Source of the DNA: an uncultured archaeon | GTDB lineage: Archaea; Asgardarchaeota; Lokiarchaeia; Sigyniarchaeales; SOKP01 | DNA length: 15,027 bases | Assembly: GCA_964525635.1 (NCBI GenBank) | Contig: CAZGJX010000100.1 | Span: forward strand, 1 to 15,027 | Direction of reading: 5' to 3' | Shown here: positions 2,568-14,666 of the stretch, one piece after another | How the letters are laid out: every line of letters starts with the position of its first letter | How positions within the stretch are numbered: position 1 is the stretch's first letter | Position numbers and translations under genes: made by a program | The notes under the pieces: model-generated | What the model saw: the letters and a program-made list of their open reading frames with translations, nothing else | Told to the model about the DNA's origin: nothing | The model's database searches: none

Positions 2568-4781
2568 ATGAATGAGAACATACAAAATAGAAGATTAATA
2601 ATTATATCAAATAGATTACCTGTTTCTGTATCTATTGAGAAGGATGAATTAGTATATAATAGAAGTCTTGGAGGTTTAGCCATAGGTCTTGATTCATTCC
2701 ATAAAAATCATAATAGTATATGGATAGGATGGCCGGGTATTACATCAGAATTAATTGAAAACCATAAAAAAAACATTAAAAATCATTTAATTAATATATT
2801 TGATTGTTATCCTATATTTCTTACTCAAGAAGAAAGAGAGAAATATTATGAAGGATTTTGTAATAAGACAGTTTGGCCTCTCTTTCATTATTTCAGAGAA
2901 AATAGCACATTTGATGATAATTTATGGAATGTATATAAAGATGTTAACAAAAAATTTTATGAAATAATCATAGAAGTTAGCAAACCAAATGATATCATAT
3001 GGATCCAAGATTATCATCTCATGTTATTACCTAAATTAATTAGAGATCATTTTCCAAATGCAACTATTGGTTTTTTTTTGCATATTCCTTTTCCTTCTTA
3101 TGAATTATTTAGATTATTACCATGGAGAGAGGATATCCTCAAAGGTCTATTGGGTTCTGATTTAATTGGATTTCATACATATGATTATGAAAGACATTTT
3201 TTAAGTAGTGTTCATAAATTATTACATCTTGATTATACCATGAATCAACTACTTTTTCAGGGAAGAACAATCAAAATTGATTGTTTTCCAATGGGTATTG
3301 ATTATGATAGGTATAATAACAAAGCTAAAGAGTCTGGAACGAAAAATGAATTAAAAAGAATACGTGAAGAAATAGGAGATAAAAAAGTAATTTTATCAGT
3401 AGATCGAATGGATTATACAAAAGGAATTTTACAAAGATTAGATGCTTATGAATGTTTTTTAAATACTTATCCTGAATATAGAGAAAAGATCATTTTGATT
3501 TTTATTATAGCACCCTCTCGCTCAAAAGTAGAAGAATATCAAGATTTAAAAAAAGAGATTGATGAAATAGTGGGTAAAATAAATGGAAAATTTGGTAAAA
3601 TCGAATGGAATCCAATACAATATATATATCGCCCACTAAATCTTGATCAACTAGTTGTTTTTTATTTAATTTCAGATATAATTCTTATCACTCCAATACG
3701 AGATGGTATGAATCTTATTGTAAAAGAATATATTGCTTCAAAAATAGACAATAAAGGAGTACTTATTTTAAGTGAAACTACTGGAGCAGCAAAACAACTA
3801 TATGAAGCAATTATTGTTAATACAAATAATAAGAAACAGATTATAGATGCAATAAAAGAAGCATTAGAGATGCCTGAAATAGAACAAATTGAAAGAATGA
3901 AAGCTATGAAAAAAAGAATTAAAAATTACAATGTAACTGAATGGGCAGAAGATATAATTGAAAGTCTGATTCAAGTAAAAACAATTCCACAAGATAAATC
4001 TTTACGATTTTTAACAACTCAAAAAAAAGAAGAATTAATTTTAAAGTATAAAAATAGTAATAAACGATTAATATTTTTAGATTATGATGGAACATTAATA
4101 AAATTCTACAGAAATCCTAAAAATGCGAAACCAAATGATAGAATTTTATCTATAGTAAAGGATCTTGTTTCTGATAGCAGTAATATAATTTTTATAATAA
4201 GTGGAAGAGATAAACAGACTCTTTCTAAATGGTTTAAGGGTATAAACATTAATTTAGTAGCTGAACATGGATTATGGACAAAAAATCATGATGATCAATG
4301 GAAGACAATAGAATATCTTAATAATAATTGGAAAGATCAAATAAGACCTGTGTTAAGGAGATATGTCAACAGAACACCAGGATCTTTTATAGAAGAAAAA
4401 GAATTCTGTTTAGTTTGGCATTATCGAAATGTAGAATCCGATTTATCTAATATTAGATCGAAGGAATTAGTCAATTTACTTGAAAATCTTACTTCTAATG
4501 AAGAATTAACAATTCTTGAAGGAAATAAAGTTGTAGAAATAAAGAATTCTGATATAAATAAAGGTAAAGCTATCTCTCGTATTATAACTAATAATGTCTC
4601 TGATTTTACTTTGATTATAGGAGATGATACTACTGATGAAGATATGTTTGAAGTGGGATTAACTATTGATAATGCTTTTTCAATAAAAGTGGGGTATGAT
4701 AGAACTAAAGCACATTATAATCTTTTTTCGGTAGATGAATGTCTTAAATTATTGGAAGATTTAAATTCAATTAATAAATAA
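2568..4781 (+). CDS. otsAB: bifunctional trehalose-6-phosphate synthase/phosphatase (GT20 + HAD fusion, OtsA-OtsB/TPSP)
   Basis: GT20 motifs SNRLP, GGLA, WIGWPG, WPLFHY, QDYHL, HIPFP, VDRMDYTKG and RDGMNL. HAD motifs FLDYDGTL, ISGR, AEHG, LVWHYR and IGDDTTDEDMF. Confidence 0.96.
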   Translation: MNENIQNRRLIIISNRLPVSVSIEKDELVYNRSLGGLAIGLDSFHKNHNSIWIGWPGITSELIENHKKNIKNHLINIFDCYPIFLTQEEREKYYEGFCNKTVWPLFHYFRENSTFDDNLWNVYKDVNKKFYEIIIEVSKPNDIIWIQDYHLMLLPKLIRDHFPNATIGFFLHIPFPSYELFRLLPWREDILKGLLGSDLIGFHTYDYERHFLSSVHKLLHLDYTMNQLLFQGRTIKIDCFPMGIDYDRYNNKAKESGTKNELKRIREEIGDKKVILSVDRMDYTKGILQRLDAYECFLNTYPEYREKIILIFIIAPSRSKVEEYQDLKKEIDEIVGKINGKFGKIEWNPIQYIYRPLNLDQLVVFYLISDIILITPIRDGMNLIVKEYIASKIDNKGVLILSETTGAAKQLYEAIIVNTNNKKQIIDAIKEALEMPEIEQIERMKAMKKRIKNYNVTEWAEDIIESLIQVKTIPQDKSLRFLTTQKKEELILKYKNSNKRLIFLDYDGTLIKFYRNPKNAKPNDRILSIVKDLVSDSSNIIFIISGRDKQTLSKWFKGININLVAEHGLWTKNHDDQWKTIEYLNNNWKDQIRPVLRRYVNRTPGSFIEEKEFCLVWHYRNVESDLSNIRSKELVNLLENLTSNEELTILEGNKVVEIKNSDINKGKAISRIITNNVSDFTLIIGDDTTDEDMFEVGLTIDNAFSIKVGYDRTKAHYNLFSVDECLKLLEDLNSINK

Positions 4782-4813
4782 CATAATATATATAAATTTA
4801 AAAAATAAAATGA

Positions 4814-6031
4814 TTGAGTATGATGGAGAGTTTATTAGATCAATTTTCTGAAATCATTGATTATCAATATATTCATGATTTATTTGAATTATCAAGACCT
4901 TTAACTCATAAAAAAATTGTTCATATCAATTCGACAATATATGGTGGAGGTGTTGCAGAAATTTTAAATGATTTAATTATTTTGATGAATGAACTTGGGA
5001 TCAAAACAGAATGGCACCAAATTAAAGGATCAATAGAATTTTTTCAAATAACTAAAAAAATTCATAATACTCTACAAGGAGCGAAAGAAGATTTAACAAA
5101 TCATGAAAAAAGAGTATATATAGATATGAATCGAAAGAATTCAGTTTATAATCATATTGACAATATTGATTGTATAATAATCCATGATCCACAGCCTTTA
5201 CCTATTATTAATTTCTATGAAAAACGTCAACCTTGGATTTGGAGATGTCATATAGATATAACTTCTAAATATCATCCTAATTGGGAATTTCTAAAATCAA
5301 TGCTTAACCTATATGATGGAATGATTGTTTCTATGGAAAAATATAAACAAGATATTAACCTTCCACAAGAAATTATAATGCCATCAATCAATCCTTTTAA
5401 TAATAAAAATAGATTGTTAGAAGAAAAAGAAATAGAAACAATACTAAAAGAATATGAGATTCCAATTGATAAACCGATTATATCTCAAGTCTCTCGGTTT
5501 GATAAATGGAAAGATCCTATTGGAGTTGTTAATGCTTTTAAAATAATTAGAAAAGAATTTGATTGTAGACTTGTTTTATTAGGAAATATGGCACAAGATG
5601 ATCCTGAAGGATTTGAAATTTACAATGAACTAATTCAAATTGTTGAAGATAATCCAGATATTCATATTATTACTGCCGAAAATAGTATATTAGTAAATGC
5701 ATTGCAAAGAGCTTCTGAAGTTGTAATACAAAAATCAATTAGAGAAGGTTTTGGATTAACAGTTACCGAAGCATTATGGAAAGAAACACCTGTAGTTGGT
5801 GGAAATGTTGGCGGAATTCCTCTTTAAATTATTGATGGAAAAACAGGATATTTAGTCAATAATATTGATGAATGTGCTAAACGAGTTCTAAAAATTTTAA
5901 GAAATCCGAATTTAGGTAAAAAATTAGGGAAAACTGGAAAAGAACATGTAAAAAAGAACTTCTTAATCATAAGACATCTTAAGGACTATATTAATTTACT
6001 AAAAAGATACATCATTCATTATAAAACTTAA
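4814..6031 (+). pseudogene. treT: TreT-like trehalose synthase (GT4 glycosyltransferase) with an in-frame TAA at 5825-5827
   Basis: Motifs HINSTIYGGGVAEIL, IHDPQP, WIWRCHID, QVSRFDKWKDP and QKSIREGFGLTVTEALWK. The same frame continues past the stop as GGIPL*IIDGKTGYLV...GKEHVKKNFLIIRHLKDY to TAA at 6029-6031, giving 405 codons. Confidence 0.88.
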
Positions 6032-9544: not shown

Positions 9545-9699
9545 AGATTAATTCAATATGATATAAAATTTATTTTTTTCACTATTTTAGAATTGTATCT
9601 ATAGAACTGAGAATATAGATTAATATTATAATTAATATGATAAATTTGAAGAAATTTAAGTGAAATTTAATAAATTAAAAATATAAGTATTAAAAAAAA

Positions 9700-10362
9700 T
9701 TAATCAATTTCAACTAATTCTGTTTTGTTTGCTTGATTTATAGCTTCTTTTAGTCTATGTTGCCAAGTATGTATCTTATCAATCTCATCAAAAACTTCCC
9801 GCTCATCAAAACCATAATCTGTATTTTCCTCAACGTTGTAGAAGTCAATGTATTCTTTTTCAATTTTATGGCCTTGTTCACTTAATGATTGTTTTGTTTT
9901 ATAAACAGGAAATATTGAACGCCATTTAAGGATTGTATTCGTGCTTTCTAACACCTCTACTCCTTTAGCTGCTCTAGGAATTGACTGAGAAGCCTCCTCT
10001 ACTTTAGGAGCAATGTCATTTTTTAATACAATTAACTCAGGGATAGTTAATTCTACCTCATCACCATTTAAATCAATTAATTTAGCCTTTGCTTTCTGAT
10101 TTGTCAAAGAAATTCTTAATGCAAGCTTCTTATCTTCATCAATTAATTCCTTGATTTTCTTTTGACATTCCTCAATAGTATAATTTCGCTCAAAATTTTT
10201 TTTTGATCCTAGAATTGGATCAAATTTTTTCTCTCCCTCAATTTCTTTTGTCTGATATTTTAGAGTCTCCCGTCCAGCAAGTTTTAAACGATTTATCCAA
10301 TTATTAAATTCATTCTCAATTTGTTTTCGACGAGAAAATCCATCTCCTAATGAAAATGTTAT
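9700..10362 (-). CDS. DIP1984-like long helical/coiled-coil protein, 220 aa, ATA start
   Basis: The frame is open for 85 codons upstream of the listed TTG at 10107, back to TGA at 10369-10371. GAGGTG (10375-10370) lies 7 nt before ATA. Motifs LGDGFSRRKQI, LALRISLTNQKA, LTIPELIVLK and EID..LKEAINQANKTELVE parallel the DIP1984-family pattern as I recall it. Confidence 0.8.
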   Translation of the reverse strand: MTFSLGDGFSRRKQIENEFNNWINRLKLAGRETLKYQTKEIEGEKKFDPILGSKKNFERNYTIEECQKKIKELIDEDKKLALRISLTNQKAKAKLIDLNGDEVELTIPELIVLKNDIAPKVEEASQSIPRAAKGVEVLESTNTILKWRSIFPVYKTKQSLSEQGHKIEKEYIDFYNVEENTDYGFDEREVFDEIDKIHTWQHRLKEAINQANKTELVEID

Positions 10363-10383
10363 TCTTCTTCACCTCTTTTATAT

Positions 10384-10583
10384 ATGGGTGTCAGTGAGGT
10401 CCTCATGGCAAGTAAGAGCCATTGGATGATTTTAAATATATCTCTTTATAAAAATTACTTTTTAATCTATACCTAATCAGGTCTACGTCAAAAGCATGAC
10501 TGATGCTTAGGTCGACTGCCTAAAGTTTTTTAACAGATATTTATCAGTTTTACATCTTACTATTCGATCCGCACTGACAACAT
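10384..10583 (-). ncRNA. putative ~200-nt structured ncRNA or 5' leader of unknown family
   Basis: Nested complementarity at 10389-10396/10572-10579 (8 bp), 10411-10417/10555-10561 (7 bp), 10438-10443/10535-10540 and 10457-10461/10522-10526. Hairpins at 10405-10422, 10471-10482, 10492-10508 and 10508-10522. Locally GC-enriched, and it begins at the expected distance from a TATA box. Confidence 0.72.
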
Positions 10584-10599
10584 TAATAATATTTTCCTA

Positions 10600-10614
10600 T
10601 ATTTAAATCTTGCG
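10600..10614 (-). promoter_or_regulatory. archaeal BRE/TATA promoter for the ncRNA-DIP1984-like unit
   Basis: The minus strand reads CGCAAGA-TTTAAATA. The TATA box (10607-10600) starts about 24-28 nt before the 5' end of the closing stem. Confidence 0.6.
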
Positions 10615-10621
10615 AATTAAA

Positions 10622-10656
10622 TGGGATTAAATTGGGAATTGGGATAAAAATGGGAA
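10622..10656. promoter_or_regulatory. tandem operator-like repeat (4x TGGGA; two 17-mers at 18-bp period)
   Basis: TGGGATTAAATTGGGAA (10622-10638) and TGGGATAAAAATGGGAA (10640-10656) are 15/17 identical and lie immediately upstream of the BRE. Confidence 0.65.
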
Positions 10657-10838
10657 AAATCTAAGAATATCCTTCAATCTATTAATAATATAATTATAAT
10701 AATTAGCTTTTTTTTAATATAAGTGAGTATCTCAAAAATGCTAAAAATGAGGATTATAGGTCCCTAACCACTATTTATCCTTACATACTTAAATAGTATT
10801 AATCTCTTATATTATTTAATAATTTTTAAGGTGATATT

Positions 10839-10961
10839 ATGAAGGATCTCGAAGATGGAAAAAATGGACTATTTGATAGCCAAAAAGTATTATTTGGAAA
10901 ATTAAAAAAAATATGTCCAAATATTCTAAAATTATTATTTTTTATTCATCAAATAAGATAG
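10839..10961 (+). CDS. short ORF (40 aa) or decayed gene start
   Basis: SD AGGTGA 4 nt before ATG, then MKDLEDGKNGLFDSQKVLFGKLKKICPNILKLLFFIHQIR*. No motif. Confidence 0.3.
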   Translation: MKDLEDGKNGLFDSQKVLFGKLKKICPNILKLLFFIHQIR

Positions 10962-11451
10962 ATTAATTGAAATAATACTATTATTCGTTCATGAGATTCC
11001 CAAGGGGATAAGAAATGATAAATTGAAGAAAAAATAATAATTAACTACAGGGTAGAGTATATTAATTATAATTAATCTTTATTGGACCGATACTATCTCT
11101 ATGCTTAGATATTTTCATGTTATAACCTGGATTTGTAAATTATAACGACAATTATTCTTTAATTAGTGCTATTTTGTTTAGTTTAAAAAATCTTTTTTGT
11201 CCAATTTTCCTTCAAAAGTAATTATCATTTTCTATCATAAAATGTTTGAATTCGATCATTTTCTCAATTTCATTTTTTTCAAATTAGCATTTGTTATAAA
11301 CAATAAATTTATATATTAGGTTCAATACAATACACTTACAAGGTTTAAATCAATAAATTAAACTAACAAAACAAAAGCAAAAATAAGTCATACCTCGGAG
11401 TAAGAAAATCTCCTTAAGATCATTTTAAATTAAATTAGGTTTAGAAAAGAT

Positions 11452-11907
11452 ATGCATGTTTATGAAGTAGGAATTATAATTGGGGGTGTTCCCGTGATAA
11501 CTGCTAATTATATAAATCCTAATGAAAGGGAAGTAGATCTAATTCATAAATGTGCATTGTTATCATGTATTTTAAATTTTGCAGATATATTAATTTCTCC
11601 TGTAGAATATTTCGAAAGCAATAAGTATTGTTTTATTTTTAAAAAAGATTCGATTACAGGATCAGATTCAGAAGAAAATGAAATTTATGCGTATTTTGTT
11701 TCAAATAAATATAAAGACTATGCTAAACATGTTAAACCCAAATATTATCCTATATTAGTGCAAATTCTAAATGAATTTAAATCAAGGTACGATGGATGGA
11801 ATTTTGCATATTCTTCTCAGTTTTTAGGTTTTAAAAATAGAATTGATTCCATTCTTAGATCATCAACAAAAACAATGGAAGAAAAAGTTGAAATGCTATT
11901 TTACTAA
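11452..11907 (+). CDS. longin-like domain protein (Asgard eukaryotic-signature type)
   Basis: beta-beta-alpha-beta-beta-beta-alpha-alpha pattern with VGIIIGGVPV, D.IHKCALLSCILNFA, ILNEFKSRY and QFLGFKNRIDSIL. This resembles the Asgard longin consensus (G.P...D..L.SG.LSAI..F...F...Y...F..F...ID). Confidence 0.7.
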   Translation: MHVYEVGIIIGGVPVITANYINPNEREVDLIHKCALLSCILNFADILISPVEYFESNKYCFIFKKDSITGSDSEENEIYAYFVSNKYKDYAKHVKPKYYPILVQILNEFKSRYDGWNFAYSSQFLGFKNRIDSILRSSTKTMEEKVEMLFY

Positions 11908-12765: not shown

Positions 12766-14666
12766 TTAAGGGGATATTATTATCTCAACATTTTTCTTTT
12801 TCAAGCATTCTATAGTAGATTTCGTTGTTGAATTTAGGTTTTTTAACAATGGATTACCATCTAGACTAATTCTTCTGAGATTTTTTAACTTTCCTATTGC
12901 TTCTGGAAGTTCTGTTAGTTGATTATTACTTATATTAAAATACTCAAGGTTCCTCAATCTCCCTATTGATTCTGGAAGTCCAGTTATTTGATTATTACTT
13001 AAATAAAGCTCTTGAAGTGATATTAAGTTTCCAAATGTTTCTGGAAGCACTGTAATTTTGTTATCACTTATGTCAAAATATCTGAGGTTTTTTAAGTCTC
13101 CAAAAGTTTTTGGAAGTTTTTAATTAGATTATTGCTTAAATAAACATCCTTAAGAAATGCTAGTTTTCCTAGTGTTTCTGGAAGTACCGTTAATTTATTA
13201 CTAGATAAATAAAGTAATTGAAGTGCTGTTAATTTTTCTATAGATTTTGGAAGTTCTGTAATTTGATTTTCTTCTAAAAAAAGTTTTTTAAGTGAAGATA
13301 ATTTTTCTAATGTGTTTGGAAATTCGATTAATTGATTGCCACTTAAACCAAGTATTATAAGTGATGTTAAATTTTCTAGGTATTTTGGAAGTTCTGCTAA
13401 TCTATTACTATCTAAATGAAGCATTTGAAGTAATGTTAGTTTTCCTATTGTTTCTGGGAGCTCTCCTAACTTATTATTACTCAAATCAAAAATCCTAAGG
13501 TTTGTCAAGTTTCTAACTGATTCTGGTAAAGTTAATAACTTATTTTTCCCCAAATCCAATTGTTTAAGATTTTTTAAGTTTCCTATTGTGTCTGGCAAGG
13601 TTAATAACTTATTATTCCCCAAATCTAATTGTATGAGGCTTTTTAAATTCCCTATTGCTTCTGGAAGTTCTTTTATTTTATTGTCATACAAATTAATTCT
13701 TTGAAGTGATTTTAATTCTCCAATTTCTTCTGGAATTAATGTCAATTGATTTTCTTCTAAAAACAATTTTCTAAGAAAAGATAAATCCCCTATTGTGTTA
13801 GGAAGTTTTGTTATTTTATTGTCTCCTAATTGAAGTTTTTGTAGTGAAGTCAATTTTCCTATTGTTTTAGGAAGTTCTGTTAGTTGATTTCTATTTAAAT
13901 AAAGCTTTTGAAGTAATGACAAATTACCTATTGCTTCTGGAAGATTGATTATTTGATTATAAAATAAATTAAATATTTTAAGCGATGTTAGCCTTCCTAT
14001 TATTTCTGGAACTTCAATTAGGTTTGACCTAGATAAATCAAGTCTATTTATATTTAATTTATAGACTATATCTCTTGCTATTTGATCTCCTAAATCTACT
14101 AATTTTAGTAATATAAAATAAGACATATCTCTCGATTCATCATCTATATTTTCAAGCTGGTGCTTCAATTTTGGATTTTTATCAAGAAAGATAAAGTCAA
14201 TCTCATTGTTATCAAGATATTTGAGATATTTTTCTTGAATAAAAAAAAAGAGACAGGGTATATGTCCATAATGAAATTGTTTTACAATCTCTTCTTTAAA
14301 TACTTTTTTAGCAAGCGGATCTCCTATTTCAGCTAATTTTTTAAGGAGGGGAAATGAAAGATTTGAATGAAGTAATTTTGTATTATATTTCTGTTCATAC
14401 CATATTTGAAGATTAGAACAATGGCCCCAAAATTCAGTCTTAGGAGGGATTATAACATCTGAATTTACTGGCTGTTCTAATGAAGCATTTAATCTCTTGA
14501 CAATTTCATCAATTGAATCTGAATCATTGATAACTTTTAATTCTTTAATAAGGATTTCCAACAATAAAAATTTACATTGATTAAATCGCTTTCCGTTTAC
14601 ATAAATGATTGTTGAATTGTTTTCTAATCTTAAAGAAAGGTGTTTATTTACATAAAATTCTTTCAT
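12766..14666 (-). pseudogene. leucine-rich repeat protein (Lokiarchaeia-type N-terminal domain + 18 LRRs of 23 aa), split by a 1-nt frameshift at 13117-13121
   Basis: N-domain EFYVNKHLSLRLEN...QCKFLLL...EFWGHCSNLQ...LLHSNLSFPLLKKLAEIGDPLAKKVFKEEI. Adding one A to ATT-AAAAA-CTT-CCA joins the two listed ORFs with perfect LRR register (NNLIKKLPKTFGDLKNLRYFDISDNKITVLPETFG), giving 633 aa. Confidence 0.9.

What the first reader, a model, noticed from the sequence alone, without database searches (positions are those of the whole stretch)
9700..10656. Candidate undescribed ncRNA + DIP1984-like protein module with its own regulated promoter
Seen on the minus strand, in order: tandem operator, BRE/TATA, a ~200-nt self-contained folded element, a strong SD, a 220-aa helical protein, and a T-run. 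Nothing else is in the unit. Recalled knowledge: the protein pattern matches DIP1984/DUF6847-like proteins, which are long helical hairpins of unknown function. Inference: the RNA and protein are co-expressed and may form a ribonucleoprotein, with the protein oligomerising on the RNA, or an autoregulatory circuit. I know of no described RNA family that fits, and none in Asgard archaea. Automated annotation would miss both the RNA and the N-terminal 85 aa of the protein.
Basis: partly seen in the sequence, partly recalled or inferred. Interest (0 to 1): 0.88.

Follow-up and report, generated by a model that had tools for sequence, protein, structure and literature searches.

The report
New pseudoknotted RNA with partner protein
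A roughly 190-base folded RNA that is in no RNA catalogue sits next to one small protein gene of unknown function, here and in about a hundred other archaeal and bacterial loci, so the two almost certainly work together as an undescribed RNA-protein system.

Summary

The RNA is real. It has a closing helix, three hairpins and a six-pair pseudoknot. All six pseudoknot pairs show compensatory changes across 36 archaeal and bacterial copies. Rfam 15 has no match, and the RNA is single-copy in its genome.

The protein's N-terminal 85 residues are real. Homologs begin with Met exactly where this gene has ATA, which is why gene callers give only 135 aa. The fold resembles DIP1984 (PDB 3kdq), but the HMM scores are below threshold.

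The main new result is that the RNA is not only a leader.
- In Asgard archaea it lies upstream of the gene.
- In Actinomycetota it lies just downstream.
- In most Myxococcota it lies downstream on the opposite strand.
- One archaeon carries an extra stand-alone copy with its own promoter and terminator.

No third gene is conserved. The best reading is a two-part RNA-protein module, probably a ribonucleoprotein, of unknown function. Binding is inferred, not shown. Earlier agents of this scan reached the same reading on other genomes. I found no publication describing it.

The parts
10619..10654 (-). Operator-like tandem direct repeats (2 x 18 nt, four half-sites about 9 nt apart) just upstream of the TATA box
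   Evidence: the repeat finder family D1 and TRF periods 7/10/18. Similar half-sites lie upstream of the TATA box in same-genus loci L009, L010 and L060. Function not tested.
10600..10616 (-). Archaeal promoter: TATA box 10600-10607 with a purine-rich BRE-like stretch 10608-10616
   Evidence: Read from the sequence. An equivalent TATA box lies about 25 nt before the closing helix in most Asgard loci.
10390..10578 (-). Structured ncRNA of 189 nt, from the first to the last base of closing helix P1
   Evidence: Found next to the homologous gene in about 100 loci. Covariation shown. Single copy in its own genome. No Rfam match.
10569..10578 (-). P1, 5' strand (pairs with 10390-10399)
   Evidence: 10 pairs, 80% of cells paired, 7 pairs with changes on both sides in 14 Asgard sequences.
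10562..10568 (-). Conserved junction after P1; holds three invariant A residues of the 14-sequence alignment
   Evidence: Invariant columns A13, A17 and A18 in alignment A2. A related junction is present in the bacterial copies.
10556..10561 (-). Pseudoknot, 5' strand (pairs with the P4 loop at 10411-10416)
   Evidence: 94% paired and 6 of 6 pairs with compensatory changes in 14 sequences. 85% paired and 6 of 6 in 36 archaeal and bacterial sequences, against 35-52% in slid controls.
10549..10554 (-). Conserved single-stranded or tight-turn motif after the pseudoknot strand
   Evidence: Nearly invariant G28, T29 and A30 in A2. Conserved in A5 and A6.
10508..10522 (-). P2 hairpin (4 pairs) whose loop and 3' side carry the most conserved sequence block of the family
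   Evidence: Invariant G65 and C71. The helix itself is kept in only 62% of cells, and other lineages carry insertions.
10493..10507 (-). P3 hairpin (4 pairs, 7-nt loop)
   Evidence: 87% paired, 3 of 4 pairs with compensatory changes.
10484..10490 (-). Conserved motif after P3. Possible second pseudoknot with the P3 loop (weak support)
   Evidence: Invariant A97 and nearly invariant G95 and T96. The proposed pairing is only 62% paired (helix 5).
10423..10483 (-). Variable AU-rich linker (60-110 nt in other loci, sometimes with extra hairpins)
   Evidence: Alignments A2 and A6.
10405..10422 (-). P4 hairpin. Its 8-nt loop (10410-10417) donates the 3' strand of the pseudoknot (10411-10416)
   Evidence: 98.6% paired in 14 sequences and 94% in 36 sequences, with two invariant G-C pairs.
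10390..10399 (-). P1, 3' strand
   Evidence: See the P1 5' strand.
10369..10375 (-). Shine-Dalgarno sequence, 6 nt upstream of the start position
   Evidence: Read from the sequence. The same arrangement is seen in homologous loci.
10360..10362 (-). ATA codon at the exact position of the Met start codon of homologs: a near-cognate start, a start-codon mutation or a base-call error
   Evidence: Protein alignment A1. DNA of L009 and L010 has ATG there. L013 has ATC, L017 TTG and L020 GTG at the same place.
9700..10362 (-). Gene for a 220-aa DIP1984-fold protein (stop codon 9700-9702)
   Evidence: Open frame. 127 homologs. AF2 model with pLDDT 85. 3kdq is the best structural match.
10105..10107 (-). 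TTG used by ORF callers, giving the truncated 135-aa product
   Evidence: the ORF listing. P0062 in the protein collection.
9692..9699 (-). T8 run directly after the stop codon: an archaeal-type terminator signal
   Evidence: Read from the sequence.

Best explanation
The window holds a two-gene module: a stand-alone structured RNA of about 190 nt and a 220-aa protein with a DIP1984-like fold.

The RNA has a closing helix P1, conserved junctions, hairpins P2-P4 and a pseudoknot between the 5' junction and the P4 loop. RNA and protein depend on each other functionally and most likely form a ribonucleoprotein in which the protein recognises the pseudoknotted core.

In this Asgard archaeon the two genes are fused into one transcription unit: promoter, RNA, ribosome-binding site, gene, T-run. 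The RNA is therefore made as the 5' part of the mRNA. It may be cut out, or it may also let the protein feed back on its own translation.

Shown: the RNA structure, its conservation, and its strict genomic linkage to the gene with changing order and strand. Inferred: physical binding, stoichiometry, processing and any feedback. The cellular role is unknown.
For: (1) Structure. P1, P3, P4 and the pseudoknot show many compensatory changes. Over the whole structure 81% of cells are paired against 63% in shuffles and 30-43% when slid. Across domains the pseudoknot is 85% paired and P4 94% paired. G-U pairs occur on this strand only.

(2) Linkage. Among loci with a full gene and at least 350 nt on both sides, 20 of 20 Asgard-type loci and 75 of 84 others have the RNA within a few hundred bases. 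The nine undetected loci give their best weak hits, or a copy visible by eye, just downstream of the gene. The own genome has exactly one RNA and one gene. BLAST-level copies in 135 family genomes occur only where the gene is present.

(3) Independence from the mRNA leader. The RNA lies upstream on the same strand in 25 archaeal rows. It lies downstream on the same strand in all Actinomycetota, in Labilithrix and in L108/L121. It lies downstream on the opposite strand in 24 Myxococcota rows. The arrangement changed at least 3-4 times on the protein tree while the pair stayed adjacent.

(4) L013 carries a second copy with its own TATA box and a T-run terminator. Its pseudoknot covaries with respect to the first copy.

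(5) No conserved third gene.

(6) The gene is patchy, present in 17 of 400 Asgard genomes, yet the pair is kept across two domains. This fits co-inherited or co-transferred partners.
Against:
- The protein is acidic overall (pI 5.5) and has no recognisable RNA-binding domain.
- Genomic linkage alone also fits regulation of one partner by the other without a stable complex.
- The ATA start codon could mean that this particular copy is poorly translated or decaying.
Confidence: 0.62

Rival explanations
1. The element is a riboswitch or other cis-acting 5' leader that senses a ligand and controls translation of the downstream gene.
For: In all 20-25 Asgard-type loci it lies between the promoter and the ribosome-binding site. 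It has an aptamer-like architecture with a closing helix and a pseudoknot. A short tail after P1 is complementary to the core of the ribosome-binding site in many loci.
Against: In about 75 bacterial loci and in L108/L121 it lies after the gene or on the opposite strand. L013 has a stand-alone copy with its own terminator. It serves only this one gene family, with one copy per genome. The tail and the ribosome-binding site show no covariation: cognate -4.4 against non-cognate -4.8 kcal/mol, permutation p 0.81.
Confidence: 0.08
2. The RNA is only the operator of an autoregulatory loop. The protein binds its own transcript to limit its synthesis, and the RNA has no other role.
For: Co-transcription is likely both in Asgard (5' UTR) and in Actinomycetota, where the RNA starts about 8-100 nt after the stop codon. 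Weak start codons (ATA, ATC, TTG, GTG) recur in this gene.
Against: A convergent RNA gene in 24 Myxococcota rows cannot be part of the mRNA. A stand-alone terminated copy exists in L013. A 190-nt pseudoknotted fold kept across two domains is far more than known protein operators need.
Confidence: 0.12
3. The pair is a toxin-antitoxin-like or defence-type module in which the RNA neutralises or licenses the protein, as in type III systems.
For: A two-component, self-contained unit with a patchy distribution (17 of 400 Asgard genomes), presence in distant phyla and no fixed neighbours. Weak fold resemblance to uncharacterised phage proteins.
Against: The RNA is not an array of repeats. There is no match to PADLOC or PHROGs models. 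No nuclease or toxin fold was detected. Archaeal and bacterial proteins form two clean clades instead of a mixed pattern of recent transfer.
Confidence: 0.1
4. The folded region is a repeated mobile element (MITE), a known RNA gene or a chance fold.
For: Terminal inverted complementarity at the two ends. The single-sequence fold z-score is only moderate.
Against: Single copy in 4.45 Mb. No tRNA or tmRNA. No Rfam family at E up to 1 in the window or in 22 related loci. Extensive covariation.
Confidence: 0.01

Closest known systems
DIP1984 family / Pfam DUF6847 (crystal structure 3kdq, Corynebacterium diphtheriae, function unknown)
   Same: It is the best structural match to the AF2 model: VIA Z 11.6 with 150 of 152 residues aligned, and Foldseek probability 1.0. 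Weak HMM similarity covers residues 56-164.
   Different: HMM scores are far below the curated cut-offs (17.7 against 70 bits; 16.8 against 27 bits). The protein has 220 aa rather than about 150, with long beta-hairpin insertions. No RNA partner is known for DIP1984 proteins, and this was not tested here.
Pfam DUF7873 (PF25283, function unknown)
   Same: Bacterial members of this protein family score at the edge of the family threshold (22-31 bits against 27). 15 of 86 aligned homologs match weakly.
   Different: The window's protein and its Asgard relatives do not match. No literature on the family was found.
Orphan structured ncRNAs with dedicated partner proteins, such as OLE RNA with the Oap proteins or bacterial Y RNA next to Rsr/Ro (own knowledge; OLE is named in PMC12286853)
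   Same: A complex conserved RNA fold is genetically coupled to a specific protein gene. The distribution is patchy and the biochemical role is not obvious from sequence.
   Different: There is no sequence or structural homology (Rfam negative). The size and architecture differ, the partner protein is unrelated, and this pair spans archaea and bacteria.
Protein-binding autoregulatory mRNA leaders (ribosomal-protein leaders, archaeal L7Ae leader; own knowledge)
   Same: In the Asgard branch the RNA sits between the promoter and the ribosome-binding site of the gene whose product probably binds it.
   Different: In bacteria the RNA is found downstream and on the opposite strand, and one archaeon has a stand-alone copy. 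It is also much larger and more elaborate than such operators.
Type III toxin-antitoxin systems (ToxIN type; own knowledge)
   Same: A pseudoknot-forming RNA is encoded immediately beside a small protein as a self-contained two-part unit.
   Different: There are no tandem RNA repeats. The gene order is variable. No endoribonuclease fold and no defence-model hit were found.

Membership tests
DIP1984 family (NCBIfam NF038048) / Pfam DUF6847 (PF20935) | HMM score at or above the curated cut-off | tested here: not met
   17.7 bits against 70. 16.8 bits against 27. Only 7 of 86 homologs reach E 0.01.
DIP1984 family (NCBIfam NF038048) / Pfam DUF6847 (PF20935) | Fold of the solved representative (3kdq) | tested here: met
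   VIA-align Z 11.6, rmsd 4.8, 150 of 152 residues aligned, ranked first of 48,161 chains. Foldseek E 4.8e-3, probability 1.0.
Pfam DUF7873 (PF25283) | HMM score of at least 27 bits | tested here: not met
   No hit for the window protein at E up to 1, and none in the own genome or in 10 relatives. Bacterial homologs score 19-31 bits.
Any Rfam 15 RNA family | Covariance-model match | tested here: not met
   No match at E up to 1 in the window, in 10 Asgard loci or in 12 bacterial and other loci.
Riboswitch / cis-regulatory 5' leader | Located in the 5' UTR of the controlled gene throughout the family | tested here: not met
   Upstream only in the archaeal clade. In the census, 50 loci have it downstream on the same strand and 23 downstream on the opposite strand.
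Riboswitch / cis-regulatory 5' leader | Expression platform that covaries with the ribosome-binding site | tested here: inconclusive
   Complementarity exists in many loci, but cognate pairs are no better than non-cognate pairs (p 0.81).
Riboswitch / cis-regulatory 5' leader | Specific ligand binding | not testable with these tools
   Needs in-line probing or ITC.
Type III toxin-antitoxin | Antitoxin RNA made of tandem repeats processed by the toxin | tested here: not met
   TRF finds repeats only in the promoter region, none in the RNA.
Type III toxin-antitoxin | Toxin with an endoribonuclease fold, or a hit to a known defence model | tested here: inconclusive
   No such match in PDB, PADLOC or PHROGs. 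A missing match does not exclude it.
MITE / repeated element | Many copies in the genome | tested here: not met
   One copy by BLAST, by covariance model and by exhaustive nhmmer.
tRNA / tmRNA | Recognised by ARAGORN | tested here: not met
   No gene in 9600-11500.
Dedicated ncRNA-protein pair (RNP) | Strict genomic co-occurrence of the RNA and the protein gene | tested here: met
   95 of 104 loci by automatic detection, and the rest by weak hits in the expected position or by eye. The ratio is 1:1 in the own genome.
Dedicated ncRNA-protein pair (RNP) | Physical, specific binding | not testable with these tools
   Needs EMSA, RIP or structural work.

The most novel reading that the evidence does not exclude
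A previously uncatalogued ribonucleoprotein shared by Asgard archaea and several bacterial phyla. In it, a pseudoknotted RNA of about 190 nt is the specific partner, perhaps the assembly scaffold, of a two-repeat DIP1984-fold protein. This would give the first functional handle on the DIP1984/DUF6847/DUF7873 group of unknown proteins.
Probability: 0.5. Interest if true: 0.85.

Novelty: categorically new. Interest (0 to 1): 0.8.

Why it matters
Structured RNA families kept across archaea and bacteria are rare. Those with a dedicated protein partner, such as RNase P, SRP, tmRNA-SmpB and Y RNA-Ro, have all turned out to be basic cell machinery or quality-control systems.

This pair is not in Rfam. 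I found no paper on it, and its protein belongs to a set of families with a solved structure but no known function. Because cultured Nocardiopsis, Murinocardiopsis and Streptomonospora strains carry the same pair, the question becomes directly testable at the bench.

It also shows that annotation pipelines miss both the RNA and, here, 40% of the protein.

Tried and rejected
- **Full-length covariance model:** I used 5'-domain models R1 and R2 plus iterative nhmmer instead.
- **Genome-wide RNA-model search of 151 Asgard genomes:** only 27 of thousands of first-look candidates per genome were scored, so absence elsewhere cannot be concluded from it.
- **Script with typed anchor motifs:** The analysis was redone with coordinates only.
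- **Automatic P1 finder:** noisy for GC-rich bacterial loci. Boundaries were set from printed sequence.
- **Anti-Shine-Dalgarno idea:** a first test gave p 0.007 with faulty windows. The corrected test gave p 0.81, so it is dropped as unsupported.
- **K-turn at the P1 junction:** rejected by inspection, because many archaeal copies lack the required G-A pairs (read).
- **tRNA/tmRNA-like end:** rejected.
- **Second pseudoknot between the P3 loop and the following motif:** only 62% paired, left open.
- **PDB sequence search:** only a chance coiled-coil hit.
- **PHROGs and PADLOC:** nothing.
- **BFVD:** only weak matches to uncharacterised phage proteins.
- **Neighbour clustering:** no conserved third gene.
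- **Internal repeat in the protein:** only weakly supported (hhalign E 0.008 over 22 columns).

Full report
**The observation**

On the minus strand of the window the listed elements are all present.
- Two 18-nt direct repeats lie at 10619-10654.
- A TATA box lies at 10600-10607.
- A segment from 10578 to 10390 has ends that pair with each other.
- A strong Shine-Dalgarno lies at 10369-10375.
- An open frame runs to the stop at 9702-9700.
- A T8 run lies at 9692-9699.

Folded alone, the segment gives -45.1 kcal/mol with z = -2.44, which is suggestive only. It is not repeated in the 4.45-Mb genome. It is not a tRNA or tmRNA. It matches no Rfam 15 family at E up to 1.

**The protein**

The frame is open for 222 codons, but the first ATG/GTG/TTG is TTG at 10107. 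ORF callers therefore give 135 aa, and the public collection holds that truncated form (P0062).

A search found 127 homologs, nearly all of 216-227 aa, covering 97-100% of the long frame. In the alignment their initiator Met stands exactly where this gene has ATA (10362-10360), six bases after the Shine-Dalgarno. The N-terminal 85 residues are therefore real.

The start is either a near-cognate ATA, a recent ATG-to-ATA change, or a base-call error. Same-genus loci have ATG there. L013 has ATC, L017 TTG and L020 GTG at the same position.

Family assignment:
- Pfam DUF6847 and NCBIfam DIP1984 match only below threshold, at E 0.007 and 0.003.
- An AF2 model (pLDDT 85) has four long helices and beta-hairpin insertions.
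- Its best solved match is 3kdq, an uncharacterised Corynebacterium diphtheriae protein: Foldseek probability 1.0, and VIA Z 11.6 with 150 of 152 residues aligned.
- Bacterial homologs sit at the threshold of Pfam DUF7873, but the window protein does not match it.
- The protein is acidic (pI 5.5) and shows a weak internal repeat.
- No paper mentions DIP1984, DUF6847, DUF7873 or the Pfam accessions PF20935 and PF25283.

**The RNA is conserved and structured**

Upstream of every Asgard homolog with an intact flank lies the same element, about 25 nt after a TATA box. A 14-sequence alignment (A2) and RNAalifold gave a closing helix P1 and hairpins P3 and P4.

By inspection I added P2 and a six-pair pseudoknot between the junction after P1 and the loop of P4. 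Pair counting on the whole structure gave 81% of cells paired, against 63% in shuffles and 30-43% in slid controls. Results per helix:

| Helix | Cells paired | Pairs with compensatory change |
|---|---|---|
| Pseudoknot | 94% | 6 of 6 |
| P4 | 98.6% | 3 of 5 (the other two are invariant G-C pairs) |
| P3 | 87% | 3 of 4 |
| P1 | 80% | 7 of 10 |

G-U pairs fix the strand as the gene's strand.

**The RNA is not just a leader**

A covariance model of the 5' domain (R1) found the RNA in all Asgard-type loci from genomes and metagenomes. It also found hits immediately downstream of the gene in L121, L108 and a Myxococcota contig.

A rebuilt model (R2) then found the RNA about 8-100 nt after the stop codon, on the same strand, in roughly 40 actinobacterial and other loci. 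Reading the Myxococcota loci showed the RNA on the opposite strand, convergent with the gene. Iterative nhmmer confirmed this with E values down to 1e-17.

Census of loci with a full-length gene and at least 350 nt on both sides:

| Group | Loci | RNA position |
|---|---|---|
| Asgard-type | 20 of 20 | upstream, same strand (one locus has two copies) |
| Other | 50 of 84 | downstream, same strand |
| Other | 23 of 84 | downstream, opposite strand |
| Other | 2 of 84 | upstream, same strand |
| Other | 9 of 84 | not detected automatically |

The nine undetected loci give their best weak hits in the expected place just after the gene, or a copy visible by eye.

A cross-domain alignment of 36 RNAs keeps P4 at 94% paired and the pseudoknot at 85% paired, with compensatory changes at all six pairs. 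Slid controls give 35-52%.

L013 (a Helarchaeota MAG) has two tandem copies. The upstream copy has its own TATA box and is followed by T-runs, so it is a free-standing RNA gene.

**Distribution**

- The gene is present in only 17 of 400 Asgard genomes searched.
- BLAST-recognisable RNA copies in 135 genomes of the same family occur only in genomes that have the gene. The other hits are matches to the AU-rich linker.
- No third gene is conserved beside the pair in 62 loci.
- A quick maximum-likelihood tree of 118 proteins separates an archaeal clade (27 rows) from a bacterial clade (91 rows) with full support. The RNA's position changed at least three or four times while the two genes stayed adjacent.

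**Interpretation**

A riboswitch or a purely cis autoregulatory operator cannot explain an RNA that lies after the gene, on the other strand, or alone behind its own promoter. What remains is an RNA gene and a protein gene that need each other. The most economical reading is a ribonucleoprotein.

In the Asgard branch, including this window, the RNA has become the 5' part of the mRNA. This guarantees co-expression and may add feedback. I tested the obvious feedback idea, pairing of the short tail after P1 with the ribosome-binding site, and found no covariation (corrected test, p 0.81).

A toxin-antitoxin-like or defence role remains possible given the patchy distribution. It has no positive support:
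- there are no repeats in the RNA;
- there are no PADLOC or PHROGs hits;
- no nuclease fold was found.

Binding, processing and function are all inferred, because no expression data could be obtained.

**Relation to earlier work in this scan**

After I had reached this reading, the notebook of earlier findings showed that other agents had described the same RNA-protein pair from other genomes with the same conclusion (e1-5519117, e1-5469833). So the scan found this before on other DNA. I found no publication and no Rfam entry.

**Limits**

- The full-length covariance model could not be built.
- The whole-genome RNA searches scored few candidates.
- The middle of the RNA (P2, the linker and a possible second pseudoknot) is not resolved.
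- The tree is the quick version, not the finished careful search.

Noticed in passing
window 10360-10362 (-); L013:3004-3006: This gene carries non-AUG codons at the conserved start position: ATA here, ATC in L013, TTG in L017 and GTG in L020. Each sits at normal spacing from a strong Shine-Dalgarno. This may reflect deliberately weak initiation.
   Followed up: partly
L013:2432-2625 and L013:2754-2955: Two tandem copies of the RNA in a Helarchaeota MAG. The first has its own TATA box and a T-run terminator, and the second leads into the gene.
   Followed up: partly
window 10660-11450: About 770 nt of AT-rich sequence with no open frame longer than 45 codons on either strand, no Rfam hit and no copy of the RNA. 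Its purpose is unknown.
   Followed up: partly
window 12766-14666 (-): Two adjacent leucine-rich-repeat proteins (94 and 524 aa), possibly one gene interrupted between 13050 and 13092.
   Followed up: no
window 2568-5827 (+): Trehalose synthesis cluster: a fused trehalose-6-phosphate synthase/phosphatase (737 aa) followed by a TreT-type trehalose synthase. The TreT frame looks short at its C-terminus relative to the Glycos_transf_1 profile.
   Followed up: no
window 9703-10362 (-), residues 8-29 and 184-207: Weak internal repeat in the protein (hhalign E 0.008).
   Followed up: partly
AF2 model of the window protein against BFVD: Weak fold matches (E 0.01-0.1, probability up to 1.0) to uncharacterised proteins of Vibrio, Aeromonas and Acinetobacter phages. 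The fold may also occur in large phages.
   Followed up: no
L107 (Ga0209536_100424914) / P0092: One metagenomic homolog is called as a 265-aa protein carrying an RtcB domain hit. This is probably a read-through or overlap with a neighbouring RtcB gene on a short contig.
   Followed up: no
window 10202-10224 (+): A terminator-like hairpin with a T-run on the strand opposite to the gene, inside the coding region. It is probably chance in AT-rich DNA.
   Followed up: no
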